Shown: positions 1,077 to 32,887, counted from the stretch's first letter. The stretch: DNA of 38,363 nucleotides from a virus (IMGVR_UViG_2541047946_000018:1-38363); one strand, 5' to 3'. Notes: a model not told the origin generated them from the sequence alone. Made by a program: numbers and translations.

Positions 1077-1179
1077 GTTAAATCTCCAGATAGTCGCAGC
1101 ACCCGTTGCGCCGCATATCTGGTTATTCTATTACCTGAAAAACCACATATGGATAGAAAGGGTGTGAATACGAACAGAT

Positions 1180-1196
1180 ATTACCTTTCAGGTAAT
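1180..1196. promoter_or_regulatory. 17-bp palindromic operator ATTACCTTTCAGGTAAT (consensus ATTACC-N5-GGTAAT)
   Basis: Perfect inverted half-sites; same motif as the tripartite site between cro-like and cI-like genes. Associated AACCACATA element at 1142..1150 and half-site at 1128..1133. Confidence 0.6.
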
Positions 1197-1234
1197 TTGC
1201 AAAACGTGCTGGATAGCAAACAAATTATTTGATA

Positions 1235-1250
1235 CTGTATAAATATACAG
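1235..1250. promoter_or_regulatory. LexA (SOS) box CTGTATAAATATACAG overlapping the -10 region of the downstream plus-strand gene
   Basis: CTGT-N8-ACAG with AT-rich spacer, one mismatch from the E. coli consensus CTGTATATATATACAG; 21 bp upstream of ATG 1272. Confidence 0.7.
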
Positions 1251-1271
1251 TTATTGCATGGAGAAGATAAG

Positions 1272-1529
1272 ATGCAGCAGTATCACTATCCACTGGAAGA
1301 CGGATTTACCGAAAGGATTCACACGCCGGGAGGCGTCAGGTCACTGGTGGAGGGATCGCACTTGATGAAATTACTCCGGGATCTCGATAAGGATGGATTT
1401 AATGTCGATGGCCCACTTGCCGAACTGACTGCACTGATTAACTACGTCACCAGCTCACAGATGTCTATGCGGGATCTGCAAACACATCTCGACTATTGTG
1501 CCGAACAATTACGAAAACAAACCCGGTAA
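1272..1529 (+). CDS. Small antirepressor-like protein, homologous to the C-terminal domain of the Bro-N protein at 2913..3605; likely SOS-induced
   Basis: ATG 1272 preceded by GGAGAAG RBS (the ORF track starts at TTG 1254). About 40 percent identity by eye to the Bro-N C-terminus (LMxLL..L..DG..V.G..AELT....Y.......LRD[IL]QTH..Y). Confidence 0.6.
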   Translation: MQQYHYPLEDGFTERIHTPGGVRSLVEGSHLMKLLRDLDKDGFNVDGPLAELTALINYVTSSQMSMRDLQTHLDYCAEQLRKQTR

Positions 1530-1553
1530 ATTTAAAGGCCGCAAGAGCGGCCA

Positions 1554-2060
1554 TTAACAGTCGTAAAATTCCGGGTCCCACAAACTTGCATCGCGCGGCA
1601 TGGATTCTAAATTTTTCAGCCGCAAAATTCTGTCACACTCGACAAGAAGTTTTTGTTTTTGTTCGTCAATTTCTACTTTTTTGTGTGCTGGCTCATCCCA
1701 GTAATCCAGAAGAAACGCATGTCGCTCAGACGTTACAAGATAAATCACATACACATCACTGGTTGGTATTTTTTTATGCTTGTTGGTGGTCTTGTCTTTC
1801 TTCCCGGATGCCCAGTTTTTCCAGCATTGTTCCGTACCGCTCTCACCAAACTTGTCAGTATAGTTTCCGATGTTTACGTGAACGTGGCGTATGTGATATT
1901 CCAGCATCTCTTTCGGTGGATCCCGAAACAGAGTGTCCTTTCCGAAATCCTTATGATGACCGTAGCGCCAGTGATCTATGAACGCGTTTTTGATAGGTAT
2001 TAGCTCAGGGTCCTTCCCAAAAATTCCAGGGTGAACCAACCCCTGGAATTTATTCAGCAT
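1554..2060 (-). CDS. YafO-like putative toxin (mRNA interferase family), paralog A
   Basis: ATG 2060 overlaps the upstream gene's stop by 11 nt. Shares HWR[YH]GHH, GKDTLF, HVHVNIG, TEQCW and YWDxPAH motifs with the paralog at 4049..4561; resembles E. coli YafO from memory. Confidence 0.55.
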   Translation of the reverse strand: MLNKFQGLVHPGIFGKDPELIPIKNAFIDHWRYGHHKDFGKDTLFRDPPKEMLEYHIRHVHVNIGNYTDKFGESGTEQCWKNWASGKKDKTTNKHKKIPTSDVYVIYLVTSERHAFLLDYWDEPAHKKVEIDEQKQKLLVECDRILRLKNLESMPRDASLWDPEFYDC

Positions 2061-2469
2061 CGTCGTAGAGCTCCTGAGCCATATCTTCGGCAGTGCGTGC
2101 AAACATCCTGCGCGAGATTGCATGAGATTTCTCGACGGACATCTTTGGGACCTCATGCATAACATTTTTGGGAGTTGTGTAATAGCCTATTACAATTTTC
2201 ACACCTGACTTATGATTAATATCAGCATAATATACTTCTTGTTCAGACGTTTCACGACGAACATAATCTGCCAGTTTTCCACATTTAAATTCCCCTCCCT
2301 GATGTTTTAAAATCTCCTCAACTGCACTATTTTCAGTGAAATACCGAATAAGAAATTTCTGTCCAGTCTCTTCAGCATGAGGTATAACAGTATTATTGGA
2401 AGCCCGAACAATGGCCTTACTCAATATTTCATGGTCTTTATTTTTTTCTGATTTCCTCAAATGCTGCAT
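2050..2469 (-). CDS. Small basic partner protein of YafO-like paralog A (putative antitoxin), acidic C-terminus
   Basis: ATG 2469 with GAAGAGAG RBS (track ORF starts at TTG 2505). N-terminal region similar to the partner at 3736..4062; not YafN-like. Confidence 0.45.
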   Translation of the reverse strand: MQHLRKSEKNKDHEILSKAIVRASNNTVIPHAEETGQKFLIRYFTENSAVEEILKHQGGEFKCGKLADYVRRETSEQEVYYADINHKSGVKIVIGYYTTPKNVMHEVPKMSVEKSHAISRRMFARTAEDMAQELYDDAE

Positions 2470-2504
2470 TACTGTAGCTCTCTTCGTGTTCACGGGCCCC
2501 CCCA

Positions 2505-2521
2505 ACTACCTCTAGGGTAAA
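2505..2521. promoter_or_regulatory. Operator-like site ACTACCTCTAGGGTAAA (one mismatch), just downstream of a candidate sigma70 promoter for the minus-strand module
   Basis: On the minus strand TTGCCA-18 bp-TAGAAT precedes this site, 36 bp upstream of ATG 2469. Confidence 0.45.
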
Positions 2522-2629
2522 CATTCTATCGAAAGTATACGCATACTGGCAAAAAAATAGGCAGGTATTTTCTGAAATGGGATCAATCAAACCACATAGG
2601 GTTGAAATAACGTGAGTTATGCATTTATT

Positions 2630-2646
2630 ATTACCTTTGCGGTAAA
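2630..2646. promoter_or_regulatory. Operator site ATTACCTTTGCGGTAAA with AACCACATA element at 2590..2598
   Basis: Near-consensus palindrome in the divergent intergenic region between the minus-strand module and the Bro-N gene. Confidence 0.55.
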
Positions 2647-2723
2647 TTTACATCGCACTCCTCTTGTGCCATAGTAATCGGGCACTGGCAAAATCCAGTG
2701 CCGGGATTGGTCTCCCGGATTAC

Positions 2724-2870
2724 TACAGAGGCACATATGCCGCATAAGCGGTTTTTTTATGTGTAAAGCGCACCTATTCTATGGTGGGCTGTGTGGGGGC
2801 ACCGAAAGGTGCGCCGGGTTCCTTTGTAGCCGGTAAGACCAACTCTGCACAGTTCACCACCATCTGATTG
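2724..2870 (+). repeat. Conserved non-coding element, copy A (Bro-N leader), homologous to 22221..22360
   Basis: Shared blocks GGCACAT..GC..CG.ATA.GCGG, GGGGCACC, GTAGCCGG and TTCACCA in the same order and similar spacing in both copies; several hairpins (GGCACTGG/CCAGTGCC, CCGGGA/TCCCGG, CCGC-ataa-GCGG followed by T7). Confidence 0.4.
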
Positions 2871-2912
2871 GTCTCAGCGGTGGTGATTAACCTAACTACA
2901 AAGGTGATCGCC

Positions 2913-3605
2913 ATGAATACCAAACCTTCCATCTTTTCCTTTGAGTCATCCTGCCAGATCCGTATGTTCATGATTGACGGAGAACCTTGGTTTGTCACCA
3001 AAGATGTGTGCAATGCTTTGAATATTGATGTTACACAAGCGAGAAAACTTGATAAAAAAGGCTGGAACAAAAAGGGGCTGTATTCAATACAGACCCCTGG
3101 TGGAATACAAGAACTATCCATCGTTTCAGAATCAGGTCTCTACATCCTTATTCTGCGTTGCAAAGAGGCAATGACTGAGGGAACGAGAGCATTCAGATTT
3201 CTTGAATGGGTTACAGGTGAGGTTCTTCCTCAGATCCGCCGCACCGGAAGTTACATTAAAAACTCGCTCCCGCAGGAAGAACGCATAAAGATGGTTGCCG
3301 ACCAGGTAGCCAACGCCACAGCATCAGCAGTGATGCAGGCAATGAAGATAGAGAACAAAACCTACAGCGCCCCGCTGAAGCCCGGCTACCGTAGCCTGAT
3401 TCATTCTCCGTCTGGTGTTCTCGGCCTGACGGAGAACTCACTGCTGATGAATCTGCTGAACCAGTTACAGGAAGACGGGCACGACGTATCGGGCGCGGCG
3501 GCGGAGCTGACCACCATGTTCTGCTACATCGTTGGTGTGAGCAAATGCCTGCGTGATATCCAGACGCACGCGGAGTACATCAACGACAAGGCAGGGTTCT
3601 TCTGA
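2913..3605 (+). CDS. Bro-N domain antirepressor-like protein
   Basis: ATG 2913 with AGGTGA RBS. N-terminal Bro-N signature (IRMFMIDGEPWFVTKDVCNALNI); C-terminal domain homologous to the 1272..1529 product. Confidence 0.7.
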   Translation: MNTKPSIFSFESSCQIRMFMIDGEPWFVTKDVCNALNIDVTQARKLDKKGWNKKGLYSIQTPGGIQELSIVSESGLYILILRCKEAMTEGTRAFRFLEWVTGEVLPQIRRTGSYIKNSLPQEERIKMVADQVANATASAVMQAMKIENKTYSAPLKPGYRSLIHSPSGVLGLTENSLLMNLLNQLQEDGHDVSGAAAELTTMFCYIVGVSKCLRDIQTHAEYINDKAGFF

Positions 3606-3614
3606 CAGAACGGC

Positions 3615-3640
3615 GGCACAGGGATGTGCCTTTAAATAAT
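3615..3640 (+). terminator. Possible intrinsic terminator after the Bro-N gene
   Basis: GGCACA-ggga-TGTGCC hairpin followed by TTTAAATAATT. Confidence 0.3.
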
Positions 3641-3677
3641 TCTGTACAGATTGCAGACTGTGGGTGAATAGCGTACT

Positions 3678-3694
3678 ATTACCTTAAAGGTAAA
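3678..3694. promoter_or_regulatory. Operator site ATTACCTTAAAGGTAAA overlapping a candidate promoter (TTGCAG-17 bp-TACTAT)
   Basis: Palindrome 42 bp upstream of ATG 3736. Confidence 0.55.
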
Positions 3695-3735
3695 CCTGTT
3701 TTTATTTTATACCTGTAACTTACCGGAGATTAAAG

Positions 3736-4062
3736 ATGACAAAACTTGGATTCGTGATGAGAGGTCCGGTAAGAAGCGGAACTCATGCAAAGCGTAGCAA
3801 GAGTCGTATTTTTACTGGTAAGGTTGTAGCACGTAAATCAGCTATTGGCTCGTTCAATAGTGAAAATGCGGCATTGCGCCATATTTTTATCAGCACAAAG
3901 CCAAGAGCATCCGCTGATGTGCATACAATGTCTATTCCTATCACAAAGAATATAAAGCGGATAAAAAAGCTCTCATCTGCAGAATCAAAAGAGATATCTT
4001 TCCGCCAGCTTAACTCATTAGAAACGCATATGAAGGAAGAGGAATTCGATGTTTTTGAGTGA
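3736..4062 (+). CDS. Small basic partner protein of YafO-like paralog B (putative antitoxin), acidic C-terminus
   Basis: ATG 3736 with GGAG RBS; stop overlaps the downstream start by 14 nt. Confidence 0.5.
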   Translation: MTKLGFVMRGPVRSGTHAKRSKSRIFTGKVVARKSAIGSFNSENAALRHIFISTKPRASADVHTMSIPITKNIKRIKKLSSAESKEISFRQLNSLETHMKEEEFDVFE

Positions 4063-4561
4063 GTATAGCGGGAAGGTTATACCTACTGGTGAGTTTAAAA
4101 CTGATGACTTTCTGATTTCGCTAAAAGATGCTTTTAAACAACACTGGCGTCATGGTCATCATCCTGATCTGGGAAAAGATACTCTTTTTGAAAGACCAGA
4201 GGAAGTATTAGGCTTCCATCTCAGAAAGGTTCATGTCAATATTGGTGAATATGCATCATATTCATACTCATGTACTGAACAGTGTTGGGATGAGTGGTCA
4301 TATGGATTGATTGATGAACAAGGAAATTACAGGCCAAAACCAACCAGTAACGCATATCTCATATATGCAGTCAATGAAATAAGAGATGCAGCCTTACTAG
4401 CTTATTGGGACCCGCCCGCACACACCAAAGCTAACGCAAAAGTTTGGATGGATTCCGTATTGAATTTCACAAAATTATTTCATGAACGAACGAATACAGC
4501 TCCACTTAGTAGAAATGTTTATCCGTGGGATTATTCGTACAAATCCAAAAAGCCTGCATAG
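4049..4561 (+). CDS. YafO-like putative toxin, paralog B
   Basis: ATG 4049 with GAAGGAAGAGGAA RBS; same motif set as paralog A. Confidence 0.55.
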   Translation: MFLSEYSGKVIPTGEFKTDDFLISLKDAFKQHWRHGHHPDLGKDTLFERPEEVLGFHLRKVHVNIGEYASYSYSCTEQCWDEWSYGLIDEQGNYRPKPTSNAYLIYAVNEIRDAALLAYWDPPAHTKANAKVWMDSVLNFTKLFHERTNTAPLSRNVYPWDYSYKSKKPA

Positions 4562-4642
4562 TAGTTTTTTATGGACGAAACAAAAGTCAGTGCTACACTC
4601 ATTGACGCCACATTGAGGTGGTTTATAGATGGAAATTTCACA

Positions 4643-4804
4643 ATGAAAAAAGCATTTGCTGCACTGTTCGTTTTGTTGTCTCTGGTAGCTTCAACTCAGG
4701 CCTTTGCCGGTCGTTGTCAGCACGACAGCGACACTGCTGCTGACGGCTCCCGCTGCGGTGGGCGTTCTGCGGATTCCCGCCCGGGTGGCGGTGGCATTCG
4801 TTAA
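4643..4804 (+). CDS. Possible small secreted peptide (53 aa), third gene of the paralog-B operon
   Basis: Canonical Sec signal MKKAFAALFVLLSLVASTQAFA; no terminator between 4561 and this ORF; terminator immediately after. Confidence 0.35.
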   Translation: MKKAFAALFVLLSLVASTQAFAGRCQHDSDTAADGSRCGGRSADSRPGGGGIR

Positions 4805-4810
4805 AAACAA

Positions 4811-4832
4811 GGCCGCGAAAGCGGCCTGTTTG
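4811..4832. terminator. Bidirectional intrinsic terminator between convergent genes
   Basis: GGCCGC-gaaa-GCGGCC hairpin flanked by AAAAACAA upstream and TGTTTG downstream. Confidence 0.65.
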
Positions 4833-4833
4833 A

Positions 4834-5685: not shown

Positions 5686-5686
5686 C

Positions 5687-11861: not shown

Positions 11862-12188
11862 ATGACTAAAAATACTCGTTTTTCCCCTGAAGTCCGTCAA
11901 CGGGCAGTCCGTATGGTTCTGGAAAGTCAGGGCGAATATGACTCACAATGGGCGACAATTTGTTCCATTGCTCCAAAGATTGGCTGTACGCCGGAGACTC
12001 TGCGTGTCTGGGTTCGCCAGCATGAGCGGGATACCGGGGGCGGTGATGGAGGGCTCACCACCGCTGAACGTCAGCGTCTGAAAGAGCTGGAGCGTGAAAA
12101 TCGTGAACTGCGCCGCAGTAACGATATCCTTCGCCAGGCTTCCGCTTATTTTGCGAAGGCGGAGTTCGACCGCCTCTGGAAAAAATGA
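11862..12188 (+). CDS. IS629 OrfA (IS3-family transposase N-terminal HTH part)
   Basis: [31 protein letters not shown]...; recognised IS629/IS3411-type OrfA; A6 slippery run at its 3' end. Confidence 0.85.
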
Positions 12189-13075
12189 TGCCACTGCTGG
12201 ATAAGCTGCGTGAGCAGTACGGGGTCGGACCGCTATGCAGCGAACTGCATATTGCCCCGTCAACGTATTACCACTGTCAGCAACAGCGACATCATCCGGA
12301 TAAACGCAGTGCCCGTGCGCAGCGCGATGACTGGCTGAAGAAAGAGATACAGCGCGTATACGATGAAAATCACAAGGTATACGGTGTGCGTAAAGTCTGG
12401 CGTCAGTTGTTACGGGAAGGTATCAGAGTGGCCAGATGCACTGTGGCACGTCTCATGGCGGTTATGGGACTTGCCGGTGTTCTCCGGGGTAAAAAGGTCC
12501 GTACGACCATCAGCCGGAAAGCCGTTGCCGCAGGCGACCGCGTAAACCGTCAGTTCGTGGCAGAACGACCTGACCAGCTGTGGGTGGCTGATTTTACTTA
12601 CGTCAGCACATGGCAGGGCTTCGTCTATGTGGCGTTCATCATTGATGTGTTTGCCGGATACATTGTGGGGTGGCGGGTCTCATCGTCCATGGAGACGACA
12701 TTCGTGCTGGATGCACTGGAGCAGGCGTTATGGGCCCGTCGACCGTCCGGCACGGTCCATCACAGTGATAAAGGTTCTCAGTATGTATCGCTGGCCTACA
12801 CACAGCGGCTTAAGGAAGCCGGATTACTGGCATCAACAGGAAGTACAGGCGACTCGTATGACAACGCGATGGCGGAGAGCATCAATGGTCTTTACAAAGC
12901 GGAGGTAATACACCGTAAGAGCTGGAAAAACCGTGCAGAAGTGGAACTGGCCACACTCACGTGGGTGGACTGGTATAACAATCGACGATTGCTGGAAAGG
13001 CTGGGCCATACTCCTCCGGCAGAAGCAGAAAAAGCTTATTATGCTTCCATCGGAAACGATGATCTGGCAGCCTGA
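12185..13075 (+). CDS. IS629 OrfB (transposase catalytic DDE domain)
   Basis: Overlaps orfA in the -1 frame; rve-type integrase core by family knowledge. Confidence 0.85.
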
Positions 13076-13135
13076 GTTCACAGATAAAATACTCTCCAGG
13101 AAACCCGGGGCGGTTCATAGTAGGAACAACAGGCA

Positions 13136-19845: not shown

Positions 19846-20138
19846 TCCTGTTCACTGGCCTCTTTGGCCATCTTCAAATACTGTTCAGGGCAATGCGCCA
19901 TAACGCGCTGAAACAGTTCCAGCGCCAGATTGCATTGCCCCTCATTAAATGCCATTGCCATAGCGTCCATCGGTGAGATAGCGGAAAACACACGGCCTTT
20001 CTCCAGCACCGACCAGACAACGCGACGCCCCTGTTCACTGCTCATGACAAAGCGAATGTCATCAATTTCACGCTGTGCCATGTCACGTTGCTTACGGGCG
20101 TTTTCTTCTTTCAGTTGATCATCTTCGTAATCTGTCAT
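19842..20138 (-). CDS. Hypothetical protein (98 aa) between portal and scaffold genes
   Basis: ATGA-type overlaps on both sides. Confidence 0.45.
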   Translation of the reverse strand: MTDYEDDQLKEENARKQRDMAQREIDDIRFVMSSEQGRRVVWSVLEKGRVFSAISPMDAMAMAFNEGQCNLALELFQRVMAHCPEQYLKMAKEASEQE

Positions 20139-21814: not shown

Positions 21815-21828
21815 TTCAATGACTCCGG

Positions 21829-22035: not shown

Positions 22036-22124
22036 ATCAATGACTCCGTACGCAATTAAATTATTACCAATTTAACCACATATGATTTATTTATCGTAGA
22101 AGGTTGACATTTAACGCGTGAATT

Positions 22125-22141
22125 ATTACCTTTCGGGTAAC
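22125..22141. promoter_or_regulatory. Operator site ATTACCTTTCGGGTAAC with adjacent TTGACA -35 hexamer (22104..22109), AACCACATA element (22074..22082) and half-site (22063..22068)
   Basis: Same cassette architecture as at 1128..1196, 2590..2646 and 29686..29764. Confidence 0.55.
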
Positions 22142-22727: not shown

Positions 22728-22741
22728 CTTGATGACCGCAA

Positions 22742-22758
22742 ATTACCTTAAAGGTATA
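22742..22758. promoter_or_regulatory. Operator site ATTACCTTAAAGGTATA overlapping a TATAAT hexamer (22755..22760)
   Basis: Palindrome immediately upstream of the moron ORF. Confidence 0.55.
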
Positions 22759-22761
22759 ATC

Positions 22762-23580
22762 ATGAAAAACTTCAAGGTAATTAGCATGTTTGAATCGTTT
22801 AAAGAGCTGTTTTTATCTACTGCCAATACTGCCGTGAATCGAGCCAAAAACCCTGTGCTTGGTGCTTTTGTTATGTCCTGGTGCGCCTTCAACTGGAAAT
22901 CAATTCTTTATCTATTTTTTAGCAAATCAAACATAATAGATAAAATTTCATATATCTCAGATAACAGCACATGGAAAACTGTTATGTTTTATCCATGCTT
23001 ATCTGTAATTGCTATCTGCTGCCTATTACCATGGGTAAACAATATCATTAACGTATGGCAAGCAAAGCCTCTTGATAATAATGACTCAATCGAAAATCAC
23101 CTGAAGGCAAGAAAAATCCAGCGTGAAACCAGACTGCAGAGGTTATTGGCTAAAAAAGATGTTACATACGACAAAGTTAAGACTGGCGCGGAAAAAGACA
23201 TCCAAGAGATGAAAGAAGAGATTATTCGATCAAAGAATAGTATGGGGGAATTGACTGCTGAGTTGAAAGCTAAAGATGACGAATTGAGATCCGCCAGTGC
23301 TCAGTTAGCAGCTCTAAATCATTCATTAAAAGAGATATCGGAAACTCTTGGAAGAATGAATGAGGCATATAAGACCCTCCAAAATGATTTCGACGAATAC
23401 AAACTCAAATACCCTGAAAAATCTCAAATAAAAAGTCTTGCACTTGGCAACGGCCAAACAATTAGCAACTTTTTGGAGCAACACAACTTATCCGGATTAA
23501 AATCTGGTAAGCCAGACGTTTTTAATAACTTTGGTGTTCTATCTGGATTATCAGGTTTCGAGGATAAAAATAAAGACTAA
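22762..23580 (+). CDS. AT-rich moron: membrane protein with two predicted TM helices and a long C-terminal coiled coil; candidate superinfection-exclusion or abortive-infection factor
   Basis: Start ATG 22762 or 22786 (both have RBS); hydrophobic segments VLGAFVMSWCAFNWKSILYLFF and VMFYPCLSVIAICCLLPWV; low GC; stop codon overlaps the TerL stop tail-to-tail. Confidence 0.6.
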   Translation: MKNFKVISMFESFKELFLSTANTAVNRAKNPVLGAFVMSWCAFNWKSILYLFFSKSNIIDKISYISDNSTWKTVMFYPCLSVIAICCLLPWVNNIINVWQAKPLDNNDSIENHLKARKIQRETRLQRLLAKKDVTYDKVKTGAEKDIQEMKEEIIRSKNSMGELTAELKAKDDELRSASAQLAALNHSLKEISETLGRMNEAYKTLQNDFDEYKLKYPEKSQIKSLALGNGQTISNFLEQHNLSGLKSGKPDVFNNFGVLSGLSGFEDKNKD

Positions 23581-25052: not shown

Positions 25053-25645
25053 TGATTACCATCCTGACGTTCTTTGAGTCGCTTCCTGGCTGCTGCTATG
25101 CGATCAGCAATTGTCACATTCACATTAACATCCAGACGTTCTTTGAATGCGTTGACATCAACATGCTTACCAATCAGCTCAAGGTTCTTCACCTTGTCAG
25201 GCCATTTAATTTTTTTGAGGATTGTCTCTATTGAATCCTCGTTCATGTTCATGATGGTCGATGACAGATCAAAGCCACTAAGCGTAGTGCGCCAGATTTT
25301 CGGCCACTCACGGATTGGTTTAAGGCTCCCATCGTCGTTGAGGATGTCGATCACGTCCATCTGGTCGATCTCCACCAGGCGCATGAGAACGTAATCAGCA
25401 CTGACACGCATTCGTTTGTTGCGCTCCTCCATCAACTCGGCAATCCGTTTCTGAATGCGTTCATCGCGCATCATGACACTGGCTTTAACTGCCGCTGTAT
25501 TTGGGGAGAATCCTGCGTTAATCGCAGCCTGAGTCTGGTTTTCAGGCGTTTTGATGTATGACTGGCAATAAGCCTCCTGCATTGCTGTGAGCGGCTTAAA
25601 TTGCGTTGATTTGCGTTTATAGGTTTTAGGTTCAGCAGGCATCAT
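25049..25645 (-). CDS. Terminase small subunit
   Basis: Position immediately upstream of TerL; start taken at ATG 25645 (the track ORF extends to 25723 through an upstream terminator and operator). Confidence 0.55.
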   Translation of the reverse strand: MMPAEPKTYKRKSTQFKPLTAMQEAYCQSYIKTPENQTQAAINAGFSPNTAAVKASVMMRDERIQKRIAELMEERNKRMRVSADYVLMRLVEIDQMDVIDILNDDGSLKPIREWPKIWRTTLSGFDLSSTIMNMNEDSIETILKKIKWPDKVKNLELIGKHVDVNAFKERLDVNVNVTIADRIAAARKRLKERQDGNQ

Positions 25646-25661
25646 AACCACCGTGGTAATT

Positions 25662-25678
25662 GTTACCGTTGTGGTAAT
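25662..25678. promoter_or_regulatory. Operator site GTTACCGTTGTGGTAAT just upstream of the TerS start, with extra half-site GGTAAT at 25655..25660
   Basis: Consensus TTACC-N5-GGTAA palindrome. Confidence 0.5.
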
Positions 25679-25687
25679 AATACCATG

Positions 25688-25714
25688 CAAAATAAAGCCG
25701 CCATAGTTGGCGGC
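25688..25714 (-). terminator. Intrinsic terminator on the minus strand between the nin-like operon and TerS
   Basis: GCCGCC-aactat-GGCGGC hairpin followed by TTTATTTTG on the minus strand. Confidence 0.5.
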
Positions 25715-25763
25715 AGTATTCAAAATCCATCAAATTCATCATGCATAATCTACTCGTGACATG

Positions 25764-26111
25764 TCACACTATTAATTTCGTTTCATGCCAGCCTTTAGTC
25801 ACCCAGCATTGCGAGTCACCATTACACGGGCATGAATTAACTGGAACTCTCTCGCCGCACTTACCGCAACGTTTTCTGCTGATCGATTTTATACGCCCGC
25901 GCACACGTGCATCATCCTGGCGGATCAGCAGCGCGATGTACTCGGCCATTTCATAGGGATCGCGACCAGGGCGCCGGGCGGCGCAGTTCCGCGCCAGCAT
26001 TTCCTGCTCCTGCTTATCCAGCACCAGTTCAATTTTGCGCTCACCGGCGGCGGACTGCCGAGCGCGCTGCGCGGCTTTGCGTTCTGCGGGGGATTTAGCC
26101 ACGAATCGCAC
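25764..26111 (-). CDS. Hypothetical protein with C-terminal Cys cluster (CGKCG...CPCNG), possible zinc-binding regulator
   Basis: Start uncertain (GTG 26111 or GTG 26102, coupled to the stop of the upstream small ORF). Confidence 0.4.
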   Translation of the reverse strand: MRFVAKSPAERKAAQRARQSAAGERKIELVLDKQEQEMLARNCAARRPGRDPYEMAEYIALLIRQDDARVRGRIKSISRKRCGKCGERVPVNSCPCNGDSQCWVTKGWHETKLIV

Positions 26112-26217: not shown

Positions 26218-26807
26218 CACTTCACCTCCTGCGGCGGTTCTGGTAGCGGCATCCAGTGGGTTACTCCATGCCATATACCAGTTAAGGTTTCAAACCTTGG
26301 CTCTCTGCCTTTCTGTGTCTTGGCATATCCATTCCTTGTATATACGCATTGTCTAACTGCATATCCATTCCATCCAATAACTGTTTGTCTAATTTCAGGC
26401 ATTCGCTCACTACAGCTTATCCAACCATCCGGAGTTCCCGGAGTTGGTCCATCGAATTCGGGCATGTCAGGACCTTTTCTGATAGCTTTAGCCAGCTCCA
26501 GCGGGTCATCGTAAAGCCAGTCGCCAGTTTGTGGGTGATTTGCTTCTGCCAGTTGCGCCGCCCATTCAAGGCCGTCTTTGTGACCTTGCAGATAGCCCAG
26601 CGGCAACTCATCACGATTACTTACATGTTCGGCACCCCGAAGCATGGCGGCGCGGAGTTTCTGTATCTCCCGTGCCATTATTGCGTCCTGACGAGGAGTG
26701 AACATATCACCTGCAATAATTCTGTTTAGTTCCTCGTCAGTGAACTCATAATCATCAGGAACATTGTGAACCTCAGCATAAAGAGGCTTTTTGGTAGAAA
26801 TGGTCAT
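26217..26807 (-). CDS. DUF551-like phage protein
   Basis: C-terminal WISCSERMPE...THWMPLPEPP pattern typical of DUF551, from memory. Confidence 0.5.
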   Translation of the reverse strand: MTISTKKPLYAEVHNVPDDYEFTDEELNRIIAGDMFTPRQDAIMAREIQKLRAAMLRGAEHVSNRDELPLGYLQGHKDGLEWAAQLAEANHPQTGDWLYDDPLELAKAIRKGPDMPEFDGPTPGTPDGWISCSERMPEIRQTVIGWNGYAVRQCVYTRNGYAKTQKGREPRFETLTGIWHGVTHWMPLPEPPQEVK

Positions 26808-28149: not shown

Positions 28150-28150
28150 A

Positions 28151-29277: not shown

Positions 29278-29338
29278 CTTTACCCTCGCTTATCCACATA
29301 ACTTATTGATTACATTGATAACTAAAAAGATCGTCGAT

Positions 29339-29683
29339 TCAGAACTTTTCGATGTTCCAGCCACCACCTGCTTTCTTTGGTTTAACCGTTACCCCGATGA
29401 TTCGGAACGGATACTGATCTGCGGCGACTTTGGTTTTCACCCTGGCGTCGTCGGTCCAGAAACCTTTCACTTCGTGCAGTTCCATCTCGCCGGTGGCGAG
29501 CATCACAGCAAAATCGGGCGTATAGAACGTGTTGTCAGCTAACCGCAGCTTGATACCCTCAAATCGATACCAGACGATTTCTCCTGCACGTTTACGCAGC
29601 TCAAGGTGCTGGCAATACGCAGATTCTGTTTTGTTCATCTGACCTGTTTTGAGTCGACCAAGAGCCTGTATCTGTTTTCTCAT
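29339..29683 (-). CDS. PD-(D/E)xK-type nuclease-like protein (114 aa)
   Basis: PDFAV...GEMELHEVKG resembles a PD...ExK catalytic motif; the start codon is overlapped by an operator site. Confidence 0.45.
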   Translation of the reverse strand: MRKQIQALGRLKTGQMNKTESAYCQHLELRKRAGEIVWYRFEGIKLRLADNTFYTPDFAVMLATGEMELHEVKGFWTDDARVKTKVAADQYPFRIIGVTVKPKKAGGGWNIEKF

Positions 29684-29685
29684 GA

Positions 29686-29702
29686 TTTACCTCTGAGGTA
29701 AT
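29686..29702. promoter_or_regulatory. Operator site TTTACCTCTGAGGTAAT abutting the nuclease start codon
   Basis: Consensus palindrome; AACCACATA element at 29707..29715. Confidence 0.55.
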
Positions 29703-29747
29703 TAAAAACCACATAAGACACGAAATCAATAGATTTTAGAATATTTT

Positions 29748-29764
29748 ATTACCTAACAGGTAAT
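29748..29764. promoter_or_regulatory. Operator site ATTACCTAACAGGTAAT
   Basis: Perfect half-sites. Confidence 0.6.
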
Positions 29765-29800
29765 TGTCGAGGCGTAAAAAAATGCGCTATCGCGCTGGTA

Positions 29801-30601
29801 TTACTTGATAAATCCTGCCGCCTTTCCCCGCCTGTATTCCTCCATCAGCCACTGCGCCGGTGTTATTCCCCCAAGGGTGGCGGCGTTAGGCATGCACCCG
29901 AAACTTCGCCCTGGTGGATGGTAAACGTCTCTCCCTGTGTCCGGAGGCGTACTCATGGGCTCTGGCTTTGCCTGTATGCTGATCACCGGATCGGGTATCT
30001 GCTGTCCGGAAGCCACCTTTTTCGCCCAATCATCGAGCAGCCTGCGTGCGTGTTTCTCAACCTCAATCTCGCTAAGCTGGCGCTGATACATTGCACGGCG
30101 GGTATCACATACGACCCAGTACATAACCGGATGTCGCCACGGGAATCTTTCGGGACCACCAGGATATAAACTTTTTTCCTTGCTGTACCGGTGAAACTCC
30201 GCCATCACATCGTCAATGGTGACGCCAAGAACCATCTTGCTGTCTTTGCACCACTTGATAAATTGCCCTGGAGACGGCCAGAACGGAGATTCACTGGCGC
30301 GGGCGTGGCGCATACCAGCAGAAACCTGTTCACGGGTTCGGATCCCCCCTTCGGCAAACGCAGCAATCCACTGCTGTTTTGCAGCAACTTCCTGCTCTGG
30401 CGTCTTCAGGTTGGTTACCACTGCCGCCGGAAACAGTTGTTTCAGCTGTTTAAAAAGGGCATCAACAAGCCTCTCTGCTGACATGTTCACCACATTGTCA
30501 TTGTTGACGTACTGATGCTCATAACCTGACATGCGAGAAAGGGCTTCTCCGTCACGGTTTTGTATCGCGGTAAAAACGTTGTTCACAAGAAATCCTCCCA
30601 T
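29801..30601 (-). CDS. Replication protein P-like (DnaB helicase loader)
   Basis: AAFAEGGIRTREQVSAGMRHARASESPFWPSPGQFIKWCKD matches lambda P (LAFRENGITTMEQVNAGMRVARRQNRPFLPSPGQFVAWCRE) from memory. Confidence 0.8.
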   Translation of the reverse strand: MGGFLVNNVFTAIQNRDGEALSRMSGYEHQYVNNDNVVNMSAERLVDALFKQLKQLFPAAVVTNLKTPEQEVAAKQQWIAAFAEGGIRTREQVSAGMRHARASESPFWPSPGQFIKWCKDSKMVLGVTIDDVMAEFHRYSKEKSLYPGGPERFPWRHPVMYWVVCDTRRAMYQRQLSEIEVEKHARRLLDDWAKKVASGQQIPDPVISIQAKPEPMSTPPDTGRDVYHPPGRSFGCMPNAATLGGITPAQWLMEEYRRGKAAGFIK

Positions 30602-31398
30602 GCTTCAGGGCTGTTCCAGTGCGGAACGTTGTTATCAGGTAATGTTGATTGCTTCTGTCTGCTAATCTGCAGCCGCCTTGCCAGCTTCTGCTCCCACTGT
30701 GCCTGATGGTATGCCTTACCCTCAGCCATCCAGTAAATTCTGAACTCTGCAAGTTCCTGTGCCGTTGGCAGACTGTCCAGGTAGATCCCCTGCAATGAGC
30801 TTTTCCGAAGAAAGTCATCTGATGGCTGCCATTGTTCATGCATGACAAATTTGCCTAATTGCCCTGGCCCACCAGGAGGAACAAAGTTATTCATCACGGC
30901 GTTGTTTGCTCCGGGGTCATGAGGCACAGAATCCCCGCTTTTTGTCCTGCTCTCCCTCTCTTGGTTAAATGACTGGTTATATGACTGGTTCTGGATCCCG
31001 TTTTTGGGATCATTCAACATCCCGTTTTTGGGATCATTCAACATCCCGTTTTTGGGTATATTCCCGTTTTCGGGTATATTCCCGTTTTCGGGTTCATTGC
31101 CCCCCTCCCGGTTGCCTTTAATGTTCCCGTTTTTGGTTATATTAAGAGAGAAAACCCGCACTCTTTTTGTCGCTCCCTTTCTCTCTCCGGTATCTGAAAT
31201 AATCCCCATTTTCATGAGCGATATAAGCCCGGCCTGCACGGTTTTTTTATTCAGGCAAGTGTCTTTAACGAGGCGTTCTATGCTGGGGTAGCAGAGGTTA
31301 TATTCATCGGCTCTGTCAGCCATCGAGAGCAGTATGAGCTTTAATGATGAGCTACCTGGATCTGTCTCCCAAGCCCAATCTGTTGCATGTCTGCTCAT
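30583..31398 (-). CDS. Replication initiator O-like protein with ori iterons inside the gene
   Basis: N-terminal replisome-organiser-like domain; protein repeats ENGNIP/KNGMLNDP mirror the DNA iterons. Confidence 0.75.
   Translation of the reverse strand: MSRHATDWAWETDPGSSSLKLILLSMADRADEYNLCYPSIERLVKDTCLNKKTVQAGLISLMKMGIISDTGERKGATKRVRVFSLNITKNGNIKGNREGGNEPENGNIPENGNIPKNGMLNDPKNGMLNDPKNGIQNQSYNQSFNQERESRTKSGDSVPHDPGANNAVMNNFVPPGGPGQLGKFVMHEQWQPSDDFLRKSSLQGIYLDSLPTAQELAEFRIYWMAEGKAYHQAQWEQKLARRLQISRQKQSTLPDNNVPHWNSPEAWEDFL
30995..31140. repeat. Replication origin iterons: 5-6 copies of the dyad ATCCCGTTTTTGGGAT and variants
   Basis: Direct repeats at 30995, 31019, 31043, 31061, 31079 and 31123, each internally palindromic. 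Confidence 0.8.
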
Positions 31399-31413
31399 GA
31401 TTAATCTCCGCTA

Positions 31414-31614
31414 TCAGCTTGAATGTTGTGGGGAGGAATTAATCATGATCTGCTTAATCTCTGCCCTGATGCGACGGTTTGACTCCATGGTGCACTCAAC
31501 ACAGTGTCCGTTGTAAACCCAGCGTTCACTGTCATGTCCGTGCTTACATGGTTTTCCGGTGTAGTAGCGTTTAAGTCCGCGCTTTGCGGCATCAATACGT
31601 GTAATGATTTCCAT
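31414..31614 (-). CDS. Small zinc-ribbon-like protein (66 aa) at the cII position
   Basis: ATG 31614 with RBS; CKHGH...CVEC motif; the track ORF extends upstream through the operator. Confidence 0.45.
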   Translation of the reverse strand: MEIITRIDAAKRGLKRYYTGKPCKHGHDSERWVYNGHCVECTMESNRRIRAEIKQIMINSSPQHSS

Positions 31615-31693
31615 GGTAAGCCCTGTTATTAGTATTGGGATTACGGTTATTTTGTGCTGACACAAAAAAAAGATCAACCAGATTTGGTTTTTT

Positions 31694-31710
31694 ATTACCT
31701 TTGAGGTACG
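31694..31710. promoter_or_regulatory. Operator site ATTACCTTTGAGGTACG
   Basis: Palindrome between the cro-proximal terminator and the downstream gene. Confidence 0.5.
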
Positions 31711-31717
31711 AATAGAT

Positions 31718-31742
31718 ATGAAAAGACCGCCGGATGGCGGTC
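31718..31742 (-). terminator. tR1-like intrinsic terminator after the cro-like gene
   Basis: GACCGCC-atcc-GGCGGTC hairpin followed by TTTTCAT on the minus strand. Confidence 0.65.
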
Positions 31743-31764
31743 TACAGAGGGTTGTTGCCAGATA

Positions 31765-31995
31765 TCATGAGTAGAAGAAGTATGCCAGTTCCGCTTTTGA
31801 GCGCAGCCATTGTCTTGTTTTACAGGCTTTAAAAAGCCCATTCATCAATACCTTACCTGGCATTTTGCGCTTACCTGTTAAGTGAGTCTGGATATAGTGA
31901 CTCGTCGTTCCGGCTTCCTGTGCGAAGGCTTCACGCTCATCCGGAGTAAGTGCAAGCCAGTGCTTTTTGAAATCGAAATGTCCGTTATCGCTCAT
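31765..31995 (-). CDS. Cro-like HTH regulator
   Basis: 76 aa with HTH (FAQEAGTTSHYIQTHLTGKR), divergent from the repressor gene across the operator region. Confidence 0.6.
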   Translation of the reverse strand: MSDNGHFDFKKHWLALTPDEREAFAQEAGTTSHYIQTHLTGKRKMPGKVLMNGLFKACKTRQWLRSKAELAYFFYS

Positions 31996-32030
31996 AGCTA
32001 TTGCCTGATATTTATTTCAGATAATAAATA

Positions 32031-32095
32031 TTCACCCATAAGGTAACAAAAATCAAGGATAGTTACCTATGGGGTGCATTTACCTGTTGGGTAAT
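32031..32095. promoter_or_regulatory. Immunity operator region with three operator sites between cro-like and cI-like genes
   Basis: Sites at 32031..32047 (TCACC-N5-GGTAA), 32062..32078 (degenerate) and 32079..32095 (TTTACCTGTTGGGTAAT). Confidence 0.7.
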
Positions 32096-32149
32096 ATTGC
32101 TTTAAATTGAATCATCTACTGATTCATATATGAGGCGATTTTCCAGAAA

Positions 32150-32734
32150 ATGAAAAGTATCCAGGACGTCCGCAGGCAAAATCTCAACGACTTGATCGAC
32201 CGTGAATTCAATGGTGTTCAGACGCGGATGGCTGAAAAACTTGGAACTCAGGCAAATCTGGTAAACCGCTGGGCTCTTGGCAAGAAGGTTATCGGCGACC
32301 AGGTTGCACGAAAAATTGAAGCTGCCGCCAATAAACCCCGTAACTGGCTTGATATCGATCGCTCGCTTTCTCAGGAAGGTTTTCAGCCTGTCGGCCCAAG
32401 CGACATTGGCCAGCTGGCGGCTCACAACCTGGAACGCTGGATGAGCGAAAGCCGCGACCTTTCAACACAGGGAAAACTTCACCGCGCATCCGGCGTAGCC
32501 CAGGTGACAATCAGCCGCCTGTTAAACAATGAGGTCAGCGTTTCCATTTCCACCCTGGAGAATGTTGCATCCGCATTCGGGCGTCACGGCTATGAATTAC
32601 TGATTCACCCGCACGACCCTGCGACCATCAACTATGATCGCTCGCGCTACGCATTGTTACCCGAAACCGAGAAAGCAAAGATCGAAAGTTACATTGAATT
32701 TGTCATCAACCAGAACGAAAAAAACAAACAATAA
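32150..32734 (+). CDS. CI-like repressor with two HTH domains and no recognisable S24 autopeptidase domain
   Basis: Two XRE-type HTH segments; no GDSM/Ser-Lys dyad region; position between the operator clusters. Confidence 0.6.
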   Translation: MKSIQDVRRQNLNDLIDREFNGVQTRMAEKLGTQANLVNRWALGKKVIGDQVARKIEAAANKPRNWLDIDRSLSQEGFQPVGPSDIGQLAAHNLERWMSESRDLSTQGKLHRASGVAQVTISRLLNNEVSVSISTLENVASAFGRHGYELLIHPHDPATINYDRSRYALLPETEKAKIESYIEFVINQNEKNKQ

Positions 32735-32756
32735 AACCATATTTTTCAGTAAGTAA

Positions 32757-32780
32757 GCCGCCTTATGGCGGCTTTTTTAT
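32757..32780 (+). terminator. Intrinsic terminator after the repressor gene
   Basis: GCCGCC-ttat-GGCGGC hairpin followed by TTTTTTAT. Confidence 0.75.
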
Positions 32781-32800
32781 TGCCTATTCGATTACCTAAC

Positions 32801-32870
32801 GGGTAATTTTTTTAACTCATATCTATTGACATCAAACCATATACGCATAATTATTACCTCAACGGTAACA
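32801..32870. promoter_or_regulatory. OL/PL-like region: operator sites at 32801..32817 and 32854..32870 flanking a TTGACA -35 hexamer
   Basis: ATTACCTAACGGGTAAT and ATTACCTCAACGGTAAC; TTGACA at 32825..32830; extra half-site GGTAAC at 32877..32882. Confidence 0.6.
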
Positions 32871-32887
32871 GACCGAGGTAACAAGTT

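What the first reader, a model, noticed from the sequence alone, without database searches (positions are those of the whole stretch)
1128..32882. Genome-wide dispersed operator network: one 17-bp palindrome at 13 or more sites across nearly every operon
The palindrome ATTACC-N5-GGTAAT forms a classic tripartite operator between the cro-like and cI-like genes and an OL-like pair after the repressor. The same motif also sits upstream of the cII-position gene, the nin-like operon (one site abutting a start codon), TerS, the head genes, the moron, both toxin-like modules and the tailspike. In four places it occurs in a conserved cassette with an AACCACATA element about 40 bp away. Lambdoid phages normally control late genes by antitermination rather than by repressor sites at each operon; this layout is closer to P1 C1 or mycobacteriophage stoperator logic.
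Basis: seen in the sequence. Interest (0 to 1): 0.6.

Follow-up and report, generated by a model that had tools for sequence, protein, structure and literature searches.

The report
Phage repressor operators at every operon
The repeated 17-bp palindrome is real and is almost certainly the binding site of the prophage's master repressor, placed at nearly every promoter, but the same layout is already annotated for the related phage epsilon15, so this is another example of a known design.

Summary
ATTACC-N5-GGTAAT occurs 15 times at up to 2 mismatches, against about 1.1 expected. A weight matrix trained only on other phages finds 15 window sites of at least 12 bits, against 0.28 expected. All 15 lie in the ~6% of the window that is non-coding. 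The window is a phiV10/epsilon15-like podovirus prophage (genus Uetakevirus). Its repressor is a full-length homologue of the crystallised SPC32H Rep (PDB 5D50). It also carries a LexA-boxed small antirepressor and a second Bro-N/Ant gene. The epsilon15 RefSeq record already marks this palindrome as "repressor / lysogeny" binding sites at TerS, the head genes, the tail fibre, PL and the nin-like operon. Six diverged genomes (Rep 42-100% identical) carry 14-18 sites each at orthologous positions, with an invariant 62-bp operator pair at the PL and nin-like promoters. Changes in the half-sites are one-sided (87 against 2 compensatory), so this is a protein site and not a hairpin. The P1 C1 and stoperator analogy holds only for the dispersal of sites. 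These operators are symmetric and sit at promoters, and Rep is an unrelated tetrameric HTH protein. "AACCACATA" is half of a second conserved palindrome, AACCA-N4-TGGTT, whose binder is unknown. Verdict: real, functional, essentially already known, modest interest.

The parts
1180..1196 (.). Rep operator ATTACCTTTCAGGTAAT (24.2 bits), between the divergent tail-fibre gene and the small ant gene
   Evidence: Orthologous site in all six genomes. Annotated as repressor-binding in epsilon15 at 19895-19911.
2505..2521 (.). Rep operator-like site ACTACCTCTAGGGTAAA (13.5 bits), just downstream of the -10 of a predicted minus-strand promoter for YafO-like toxin module 1
   Evidence: Promoter-like TTGCCA-18-TAGAAT at 2552..2523.
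2630..2646 (.). Rep operator ATTACCTTTGCGGTAAA (21.3 bits), overlapping the -10 of the predicted promoter of the Bro-N/Ant-C gene
   Evidence: Promoter-like TTGAAA-18-TATTAT at 2602..2631. Orthologues at phiV10 20496 and Tyrion 21392.
3678..3694 (.). Rep operator ATTACCTTAAAGGTAAA (23.1 bits), 41 nt upstream of YafO-like toxin module 2 (3736..4561)
22125..22141 (.). Rep operator ATTACCTTTCGGGTAAC (18.8 bits), upstream of the head-gene operon
   Evidence: Annotated as repressor-binding in epsilon15 at 2931-2947.
22742..22758 (.). Rep operator ATTACCTTAAAGGTATA (20.9 bits), in the spacer and -10 of the predicted promoter of the plus-strand moron (22762/22786..23580)
   Evidence: Promoter-like ATGACC-17-TATAAT at 22732..22760.
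25644..25678 (.). Tandem Rep operators 18 bp apart (25644-25660 at 12.9 bits; 25662-25678 at 20.8 bits), between the nin-operon terminator and the TerS start codon
   Evidence: Epsilon15 orthologue annotated as repressor-binding at 12-27.
29686..29764 (.). Operator pair of the nin-like operon: proximal 29686-29702 (20.7 bits, 2 nt from the ATG) and distal 29748-29764 (23.4 bits), 62 bp start to start
   Evidence: The 62-bp spacing is identical in all six genomes. Epsilon15 35906-35922 is annotated as repressor-binding.
31694..31710 (.). Rep operator (16.3 bits) after the cro-like terminator and upstream of the cII-position gene, followed after 4 nt by the second palindrome
32031..32095 (.). 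OR-like cluster between the cro-like and rep genes: 32031-32047 (15.7 bits, overlaps the -35 of the leftward promoter), 32062-32078 (8.9 bits, weak) and 32079-32095 (20.5 bits). Spacings are 31 and 17 bp.
   Evidence: Three strong sites at the same place in epsilon15 and SPC32H.
32791..32869 (.). OL-like operator pair flanking the early-left promoter TTGACA-17-AATTAT (32826..32854): distal 32791-32807 (20.9 bits) and proximal 32853-32869 (20.7 bits), 62 bp apart
   Evidence: Epsilon15 orthologues annotated as repressor-binding.
32150..32734 (+). Rep, the prophage repressor (194 aa): N-terminal HTH, a second HTH_3-like middle domain and a C-terminal tetramerisation / Ant-binding part
   Evidence: Full-length match to SPC32H Rep, PDB 5D50_A, E 4e-42. 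Pfam HTH_3 and no S24 peptidase. Helix NLVNRW invariant across Reps that are 43-78% identical to the window's.
31765..31995 (-). Cro-like small HTH protein (76 aa), divergent from rep
   Evidence: phrog_35 'transcriptional repressor', E 5.6e-13
1272..1529 (+). Small antirepressor (Ant, 85 aa)
   Evidence: Translation nearly collinear with the SPC32H Ant chain 5D50_E. phrog_450 and phrog_1760 anti-repressor.
1233..1252 (.). LexA (SOS) box TACTGTATAAATATACAGTT, in front of the small ant gene
   Evidence: 2 mismatches to the consensus; 0 expected by chance
2913..3605 (+). Second antirepressor: a Bro-N domain fused to an Ant-like C-terminal domain
   Evidence: Pfam Bro-N, E 2e-13. C-terminus matches SPC32H Ant 5D50_E, E 1e-13.
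1141..1154 (.). Second palindrome (AACCACATATGGAT), between the operator and the tail-fibre -10 region
22074..22087 (.). Second palindrome copy (AACCACATATGATT) in the head-gene cassette. TATGTGGTTaaatTGGTAATAATTTAA is invariant in six genomes.
29707..29715 (.). Half of the second palindrome (TATGTGGTT on the minus strand), 4 nt from the proximal nin operator
31676..31689 (.). Second palindrome with perfect arms (AACCAGATTTGGTT), 4 nt from the operator at 31694. This composite is conserved in six genomes.

Best explanation
The 17-bp palindrome is the operator of the prophage's master repressor Rep (32150..32734).

What Rep is. It is a homologue of the tetrameric Rep of the epsilon15-like phage SPC32H. 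Its N-terminal HTH dimers read the TTACC/GGTAA half-sites.

In the lysogen (inferred). Rep occupies about 15 operators, at least one at almost every transcription unit. These units are the rightward early promoter and its own promoter (a cluster of 3), the leftward early promoter, the cII-position gene, the nin-like operon, TerS, the head genes, the tail-fibre/ant divergent region, the Bro-Ant gene, two toxin modules and a moron. The whole genome is therefore silenced directly and not through a cascade.

Looping (inferred). At the early-left and nin-like promoters, two operators lie exactly 62 bp apart (about 6 helical turns) and bracket the promoter. A Rep tetramer has two DNA-binding units, so it probably clamps both sites and loops the promoter. 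At most other sites the operator overlaps the -10/+1 region (occlusion). At the late head, tail-fibre and lysis promoters it lies about 65-80 bp upstream.

Induction (inferred from SPC32H). DNA damage removes LexA from the box at 1233-1252. The small Ant is made and strips Rep from all operators at once. The Rep-repressed Bro-Ant gene would then add positive feedback.

Shown here: motif enrichment, placement, conservation and the protein homologies. Inferred: actual occupancy, looping and feedback.
For: Enrichment and exclusive non-coding placement.

Same motif across the genus. Each of six Uetakevirus genomes carries 14-18 sites, against about 1.2 expected, although Rep is only 42-78% identical between groups. 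Sites sit at orthologous positions. The 62-bp pair is present at the nin-like promoter in 6 of 6 genomes and at PL in 5 of 6 (63 bp in the sixth).

Public annotation. The epsilon15 RefSeq record annotates seven of these sites as 'protein_bind: repressor, lysogeny'.

Protein evidence. Rep matches SPC32H Rep (PDB 5D50) full length, E 4e-42, and the recognition-helix segment NLVNRW is invariant. An Ant homologue with a LexA box is present.

Independent link between domain and half-site. A distant lambda-like Pseudomonas phage has a CI whose N-terminal domain is 39% identical to Rep's. It carries ATTACC-N4-GGTAAT sites only around cI.

Protein site, not hairpin. Half-site changes are one-sided (87) and almost never compensatory (2), and there are 71 different spacers among 82 unique sites.

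Promoter overlap. Operators overlap promoter-like hexamers at PL, PR, the Bro-Ant gene, toxin module 1 and the moron.

Literature. SPC32H Rep binds palindromic DNA as a tetramer whose DNA-binding pairs come from different dimers (PMC9638917). It has a loop-type tetramerisation domain with its paired domains about 100 A apart (PMC9986798). Overexpressing the identical repressor in phage ZX5 cut holin and endolysin mRNA by more than 99.9% (PMC9782041).
Against: No binding data for this phage or for the dispersed sites could be examined. The three primary papers (Kropinski 2007, Kim & Ryu 2013, Kim 2016) are not in the library, so I cannot say which sites have been tested by EMSA or footprinting.

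At the head, tail-fibre and lysis promoters the strong operator is centred roughly 65-80 bp upstream of the likely -10. That is not a classic occlusion position.

Transcription start sites are unknown, and the promoter calls are consensus matches that are barely enriched over shuffles.

The ZX5 transcript data do not separate direct from indirect repression.

A Cro-like protein may share the sites.
Confidence: 0.85

Rival explanations
1. The dispersed copies are bound by another regulator and not by Rep. Candidates are the Cro-like protein at 31765..31995 or the Zn-finger regulator at 25764..26111. Rep would use only the copies flanking its own gene.
For: A Cro-like HTH protein is encoded divergently from rep. 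In lambda-type switches Cro and CI share operators. At the late promoters the sites are not in occlusion positions.
Against: The immunity-region and dispersed copies are indistinguishable in a weight matrix. They co-occur with the conserved Rep helix across the genus. The same half-site follows the Rep-type N-terminal domain into an unrelated Pseudomonas phage. The epsilon15 depositors assign the sites to the repressor. Shared use with Cro would add to the Rep model and would not replace it.
Confidence: 0.07
2. The palindromes are passive passengers. A promoter/terminator cassette was copied around the genome by recombination, and only the immunity-region copies function.
For: Several sites sit in repeated cassettes with a second motif. 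The moron site (22742) is nearly identical to the site upstream of int in relatives.
Against: Between genomes the flanks and the N5 spacers diverge freely, while the 12 half-site bases stay fixed at orthologous positions. The 62-bp phasing is invariant. That pattern indicates purifying selection on the half-sites themselves.
Confidence: 0.05
3. The palindrome works as an RNA or DNA hairpin and not as a protein site, for example by sequestering the Shine-Dalgarno-like AGG at the three sites that abut start codons.
For: Three sites lie 0-3 nt from an ATG, with AGG/GAGG in the spacer or right arm.
Against: There are 87 one-sided arm changes against 2 compensatory ones. Most sites lie upstream of or across promoter hexamers and would not be transcribed in a useful register. 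The arms are conserved in sequence, not merely in pairing.
Confidence: 0.02

Closest known systems
Rep-Ant immunity system of epsilon15-like podoviruses (Uetakevirus: epsilon15, SPC32H/SPN1S, phiV10)
   Same: Homologous Rep (E 4e-42 to PDB 5D50) and Ant, and a LexA box before ant. The operator consensus is identical. Sites are orthologous at TerS, head, tail fibre, PL (pair or triple), OR (triple), the cII-position gene and the nin-like operon (pair). Seven of these are already annotated as repressor sites in epsilon15.
   Different: This prophage adds operators at accessory genes absent from phiV10 and epsilon15: two YafO-like toxin modules and a moron. It carries both a small Ant and a Bro-N/Ant fusion. 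It is disrupted by IS elements. Its lysis and int sites lie outside the window.
Phage P1 C1 repressor regulon (own knowledge: more than a dozen 17-bp operators scattered over the genome, controlled through antirepressors)
   Same: One repressor, many unlinked operators controlling most operons, and induction through an antirepressor instead of repressor autocleavage.
   Different: P1 operators are asymmetric and are read by a C1 monomer. Here the operators are palindromic and are read by an XRE-type HTH tetramer. No sequence relationship is evident: Pfam finds only HTH families.
Stoperators of Cluster A mycobacteriophages (L5/L1). Own knowledge, plus the PMC1934351 abstract: 'multiple asymmetric operator DNAs'.
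   Same: Many copies of one repressor site spread along the genome, some of them downstream of promoters and next to gene starts.
   Different: Stoperators are asymmetric 13-14-mers, oriented with transcription, lying mostly within transcribed regions, and they block elongation. Here the sites are symmetric, all 15 are in promoter-bearing intergenic gaps, and several overlap -10/-35 hexamers.
Lambda CI/Cro switch with OR-OL looping
   Same: Divergent rep and cro-like genes with a three-site cluster between them, a site pair on the far side of rep, and probable cooperative or looped binding.
   Different: No S24 autocleavage domain. Operators are not confined to the immunity region. The inferred loops are 62 bp around single promoters and not 2.3 kb between OL and OR.
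CI of Pseudomonas phage PseuP_224 (a lambda-like siphovirus)
   Same: N-terminal DNA-binding domain 39% identical to that of Rep, and the same ATTACC/GGTAAT half-sites.
   Different: The spacer is N4 and not N5. Sites occur only around cI (3 upstream, 2 downstream). The C-terminal half is unrelated to that of Rep; I take it to be an autocleavage-type (S24-like) domain from reading the sequence, but I did not run a domain search on it. The record annotates a putative Q antiterminator.
IncP-1 plasmid global repressors KorA/KorB (PMC2665229 abstract)
   Same: Symmetric operators at many promoters of one replicon, giving coordinated global repression.
   Different: A plasmid system, not a phage. 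The proteins are unrelated and there is no antirepressor switch.

Membership tests
Uetakevirus (epsilon15/SPC32H-type) Rep-Ant immunity system | Repressor homologous to SPC32H Rep over its full length (N-terminal DNA-binding domain, middle domain and C-terminal tetramerisation / Ant-binding domain) | tested here: met
   phmmer against PDB: 5D50_A, E 4e-42, residues 1-190. 42-78% identity to the epsilon15, SPC32H, BUCT711 and Tyrion Reps.
Uetakevirus (epsilon15/SPC32H-type) Rep-Ant immunity system | Small antirepressor homologous to SPC32H Ant, under LexA control | tested here: met
   ORF 1272..1529 is collinear with chain 5D50_E. A LexA box lies at 1233-1252, about 20 nt upstream of the gene.
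Uetakevirus (epsilon15/SPC32H-type) Rep-Ant immunity system | Operator ATTACC-N5-GGTAAT at the positions annotated as repressor-binding in epsilon15 (TerS, head genes, tail fibre, PL, nin-like operon) | tested here: met
   Epsilon15 protein_bind features and their sequences. Orthologous window sites.
Uetakevirus (epsilon15/SPC32H-type) Rep-Ant immunity system | Rep physically binds these sites and represses the adjacent promoters | not testable with these tools
   Needs EMSA, footprinting or ChIP. The primary papers are not held in the library.
Lambda-type CI/Cro immunity | Repressor with an S24 (LexA-like) autocleavage domain | tested here: not met
   Pfam finds only HTH families in Rep.
Lambda-type CI/Cro immunity | Operators confined to OR and OL flanking the repressor gene | tested here: not met
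   10 of the 15 strong sites lie 400 bp to 31 kb away from rep, at other operons.
P1 C1-type regulon | Many dispersed operators controlling unlinked operons | tested here: met
   15 sites over 31.7 kb at about 11 intergenic regions.
P1 C1-type regulon | Asymmetric operator recognised by a C1-family protein | tested here: not met
   The operator is a palindrome with symmetric information content. Rep is an XRE/HTH_3 protein.
Cluster A mycobacteriophage stoperators | Asymmetric 13-14-bp sites oriented with transcription | tested here: not met
   Symmetric 17-bp sites.
Cluster A mycobacteriophage stoperators | Sites mostly inside transcribed regions, away from promoters, acting as elongation blocks | tested here: inconclusive
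   All sites are intergenic and several overlap promoter-like hexamers. The TerS tandem, the proximal nin site and site 2505 lie downstream of candidate promoters and could act as roadblocks. Start sites are unknown.

The most novel reading that the evidence does not exclude
Uetakevirus promoters may be built from two interleaved palindromes. One is the Rep operator. The other is AACCA-N4-TGGTT, which I could not find described. It lies 4 bp from an operator at the nin-like, PL and cII-position promoters, and between the operator and the -10 at the head, tail-fibre and lysis promoters. That would imply a second genome-wide regulator acting beside Rep at the same promoters. Candidates are the Cro-like protein, the Zn-finger gp55-like protein, or Rep's own second HTH-like domain. 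In addition, the strictly conserved 62-bp operator pairs would be clamped into very small promoter loops by single Rep tetramers. The shared operator across Reps only 42% identical would mean that having about 15 dispersed sites has frozen the immunity specificity of the whole genus.
Probability: 0.3. Interest if true: 0.5.

Novelty: already known. Interest (0 to 1): 0.3.

Why it matters
The result shows that this prophage is silenced by direct repression at almost every operon, and that all operons can be released together by an SOS-controlled antirepressor. It extends the epsilon15 annotation to the E. coli phiV10-like prophages and to their accessory toxin and moron genes.

It also yields testable details that I could not find described:
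- the exact 62-bp phasing of the operator pairs
- the invariance of the operator across diverged repressors
- a second conserved palindrome next to the operators

These details would interest people who study repressor looping and phage immunity evolution. The central observation will not surprise a specialist on these phages.

Tried and rejected
Primary papers not available. I tried to read Kropinski 2007 (PMC2698709), Kim & Ryu 2013 (PMC3807360) and Kim 2016 (PMC4983836). None is held. What I say about their content beyond secondary citations comes from memory. Text searches for the motif in the literature returned only noise.

Weight-matrix error. My first matrix had an off-by-one error that blurred the motif and doubled the hits. 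It was corrected, and only one search is used.

Site 9097. Rejected as chance: it has 2 mismatches, lies inside a gene, scores 10.5 bits and has no orthologue.

RNA hairpin / Shine-Dalgarno sequestration. Rejected on the 87:2 ratio of one-sided to compensatory changes.

Search for distant Rep relatives. I wanted relatives with a different operator as a covariation test. The search for related loci returned only 80 loci with a 100% identical Rep. The one informative distant relative came from tblastn (PseuP_224).

Other regulators. PDB, NCBIfam and Pfam searches for the Cro-like and gp55-like proteins gave nothing useful.

AACCACATA copy at 2590. I read it as a relic of an ant 3' end and not a regulatory element, because in Tyrion and SPC32H the same bases are the last codons of the small ant gene.

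Not attempted. Structure prediction of the other regulators, and a scan of the host genome.

Full report
**Observation.** The pattern ATTACC-N5-GGTAAT has 3 exact matches in the window and 15 at up to 2 mismatches. Dinucleotide-preserving shuffles give 1.09, and none of 100 reached 15. To avoid circularity I built a weight matrix only from four other phages (epsilon15, SPC32H, Tyrion, BUCT711) and scanned the window with it. This gave 15 sites of at least 12 bits against 0.28 expected, and 13 of at least 14 bits against 0.10 expected (one search contained an indexing error and is discarded). The sites start at 1180, 2505, 2630, 3678, 22125, 22742, 25644, 25662, 29686, 29748, 31694, 32031, 32079, 32791 and 32853. 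A weak 16th starts at 32062. The match at 9097 lies inside a structural gene, has no orthologue, and is probably chance. All 15 site centres fall in the ~6% of the window that is non-coding in my curated map (P about 4e-19). Only the 5-bp spacer is enriched: at up to 1 mismatch there are 11 sites with N5 and 0-1 with other spacers.

**What the window is.** It is a phiV10/epsilon15-like podovirus prophage (genus Uetakevirus). The immunity and replication region is 97-98% identical to phiV10, PAS61 and related records, and it runs in reverse orientation relative to the phiV10 record. The repressor (32150..32734) is 100% identical to that of phiV10 and ZX5. It matches the crystallised Rep of Salmonella phage SPC32H over its full length (PDB 5D50_A, E 4e-42). 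Pfam finds only HTH families and no S24 peptidase domain. ORF 1272..1529 is a close homologue of the SPC32H antirepressor Ant. It is preceded by a near-consensus LexA box at 1233-1252. A second gene (2913..3605) fuses a Bro-N domain to an Ant-like C-terminus. From memory, this is the SPC32H arrangement described by Kim & Ryu in 2013: Rep is not cleaved, and is instead inactivated by a LexA-controlled Ant. I could not open that paper.

**It is already annotated elsewhere.** The epsilon15 RefSeq record NC_004775.2 carries seven 'protein_bind: repressor, lysogeny' features. They lie upstream of TerS, upstream of the head genes, upstream of the tail fibre, three beyond the repressor gene, and one before the nin-like operon. 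Their sequences are ATTACC-N5-GGTAAT. The dispersed layout is therefore the depositors' own reading for the type phage of this genus.

**Comparative evidence.** Six genomes were compared: the window, phiV10, epsilon15, SPC32H, Enterobacter phage Tyrion and Klebsiella phage BUCT711. Rep identity to the window's Rep ranges from 42% to 100%. Each genome carries 14-18 sites at up to 2 mismatches, against about 1.2 expected.
- Sites are orthologous at TerS (tandem, 18 bp apart), the head genes, the tail fibre, the OR-like cluster (17 and 30/31 bp), the PL-like promoter, the cII-position gene and the nin-like operon.
- In the genomes that extend beyond the window's ends, there are also sites before the lysis cassette and before int.
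- The pair at the nin-like operon is exactly 62 bp start to start in all six genomes. The PL pair is 62 bp in five genomes and 63 bp in one.
The hits were mostly ~40-kb contigs, many with two pairs about 3 kb apart, as in the window.
- Flanks and spacers diverge freely (71 distinct spacers among 82 unique sites), while the 12 half-site bases are kept.
- The Rep segment N36-L-V-N-R-W41 and I48-G/A53-R/I56-E are invariant across the five diverged Reps. This explains a shared operator despite 42% overall identity.
- A lambda-like Pseudomonas phage (PseuP_224) gives an independent link between this DNA-binding domain and the half-site. The N-terminal domain of its CI is 39% identical to that of Rep. 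It has ATTACC-N4-GGTAAT sites only around cI, three upstream and two downstream. In that phage the half-site is used in the classic local way.

**Protein site or hairpin?** Three sites abut start codons and contain AGG, so I tested selection for base pairing. Among 82 unique sites, arm positions show 87 one-sided changes, 2 compensatory double changes and 6 non-complementary double changes. Sequence is conserved and pairing is not, so this is a protein-recognised DNA site.

**Architecture and likely mechanism.**
- Where promoter-like hexamers are recognisable, operators overlap them. The proximal PL operator starts inside the -10 of TTGACA-17-AATTAT. Site 32031 overlaps the -35 of the leftward TTGTTA-17-TATTAT. 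Site 2630 overlaps the -10 of the Bro-Ant promoter. Site 2505 follows the -10 of the toxin-module promoter. Site 22742 fills the spacer and -10 of the moron promoter. These are consensus matches only.
- At PL and the nin-like operon, a second operator 62 bp away brackets the promoter. Secondary literature states that SPC32H Rep binds palindromic DNA as a tetramer whose DNA-binding pairs come from different dimers (PMC9638917). It also has a p53-like 'TetDloop' tetramerisation domain, with the two domain pairs about 100 A apart, and its repression mechanism 'has not been extensively characterized' (PMC9986798).
- I therefore infer that one tetramer clamps both operators, about 6 helical turns apart, and loops the promoter. 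The abutting sites at OR and TerS may likewise be taken by one tetramer.
- At the head, tail-fibre and lysis promoters the strong operator lies roughly 65-80 bp upstream of the likely -10. In the head cassette a conserved GGTAAT half-site falls exactly in the 62-bp register over the -10. In the tail-fibre cassette it falls in a 50-bp register.
- Induction would be global: LexA cleavage leads to Ant, which removes Rep from all operators. The Rep-controlled Bro-Ant gene would give positive feedback.
- In phage ZX5, which has the identical repressor, overexpressing the repressor lowered holin and endolysin mRNA by more than 99.9% (PMC9782041). This is consistent with the model but does not prove direct action.

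**The AACCACATA element.** TATGTGGTT occurs 4 times exactly, against 0.1 expected. Alignment across genomes shows that it is one half of a second palindrome, AACCA-N4-TGGTT, typically AACCATATATGGTT. The window has 7 copies at up to 1 mismatch, against 1.55 expected. It always lies 18-54 bp from a Rep operator.
- It is 4 bp from the operator at the nin-like, PL and cII-position promoters.
- It lies between the distal operator and the -10 at the head, tail-fibre and lysis promoters.
- Its changes are again one-sided, so it looks like a second protein site. Its binder is unknown.
- The copy at 2590 corresponds to the last codons of the small ant gene in Tyrion and SPC32H, and is probably a relic left when a toxin module was inserted.

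**Late control.** The last nin-like gene (25764..26111) encodes a phrog_536 'transcriptional regulator' with a Cys-rich C-terminus. It is followed in order by a perfect palindrome GTGACATGTCAC, a promoter-like GTGACA-18-CATGAT, a strong terminator, the tandem operators and then TerS. This resembles the lambda Q/PR'/tR' layout.

**Comparison with known systems.** The feature is a member of the epsilon15/SPC32H Rep-Ant system. All features testable here are met; only physical binding could not be tested. It works like the P1 C1 regulon in having one repressor, many unlinked operators and antirepressor induction. It is not a member of that family, because its operators are symmetric and its protein is unrelated. 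It fails the defining features of stoperators (asymmetry, orientation), although a few sites could act as roadblocks. It is not lambda-type, because it lacks an S24 domain and its operators are not confined to the immunity region.

**Verdict.** The phenomenon is already annotated for epsilon15, and its repressor is structurally characterised. Three points I could not find described: the strict 62-bp phasing, the frozen operator specificity across the genus, and the second palindrome. Interest 0.3.

Noticed in passing
It lies 4 bp from an operator at three promoters. It is conserved in six genomes and its binder is unknown.
   Followed up: partly
window 25756-25767 (also L001 2262 and 19493; L002 2142, 19517 and 39612): A third perfect palindrome, GTGACATGTCAC, lies next to rho-independent terminators at operon ends in all six genomes. 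In the window it overlaps a promoter-like -35 just after the gp55-like regulator gene and before the terminator, operators and TerS. This layout resembles lambda Q/PR'/tR'.
   Followed up: partly
window 25764-26111 (minus strand): The last nin-like gene encodes a 115-aa 'transcriptional regulator' (phrog_536) with a Cys-rich C-terminus (CGKCG...CPC...C). It is a candidate late activator or antiterminator. It has no Pfam, NCBIfam or PDB sequence match.
   Followed up: partly
window 11862-13117 and 1-183: An IS3-family element (orfA with HTH_Tnp_1, orfB with rve) is inserted among the tail/internal-protein genes. A matching IS terminal sequence at 143-183 coincides with truncation of the tail-fibre gene at 313 codons. 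The first ~600 bp of the window hit thousands of places in E. coli genomes. The prophage is probably defective, or the contig breaks at an IS copy.
   Followed up: partly
window 1554-2469 (minus strand) and 3736-4561 (plus strand): Two paralogous YafO-like toxin modules, each with an upstream small gene and its own Rep operator, flank the Bro-Ant gene. The same arrangement occurs in several E. coli chromosomal prophages. Accessory genes placed under the prophage repressor would be silent in the lysogen, which is unusual for morons.
   Followed up: partly
window 30962-31093 (inside the DnaT-like replication gene 30583..31398): Three adjoining tandem-repeat arrays (periods 12, 24 and 18 bp, 94-100% matches), including hairpin-forming units. 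They are probably replication-origin iterons inside the initiator gene, as in lambda O.
   Followed up: no
window 32008-32031: An AT-rich palindrome with 9-bp arms (ATATTTATT-N6-AATAAATAT) covers the -10/+1 region of the leftward promoter for the cro-like gene. It is conserved in phiV10 and, with changes in both arms, in Tyrion.
   Followed up: no
L204 (Pseudomonas phage PseuP_224) 19921-19975 and 20796-20837: A lambda-like siphovirus whose CI shares the Rep-type N-terminal domain uses the same ATTACC/GGTAAT half-sites with a 4-bp spacer, and only around cI. This is a natural contrast to the dispersed network.
   Followed up: yes
window 22742-22758, compared with L001 26869 and L002 26881: The moron's operator and promoter closely resemble the conserved site upstream of int and attP in relatives (ATTACCTTAAAGGTATA). 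This suggests that the moron arrived with, or captured, a copy of that control region.
   Followed up: no
window 26323-26394: A 36-nt tandem direct repeat (72% identity) inside a nin-like ORF.
   Followed up: no
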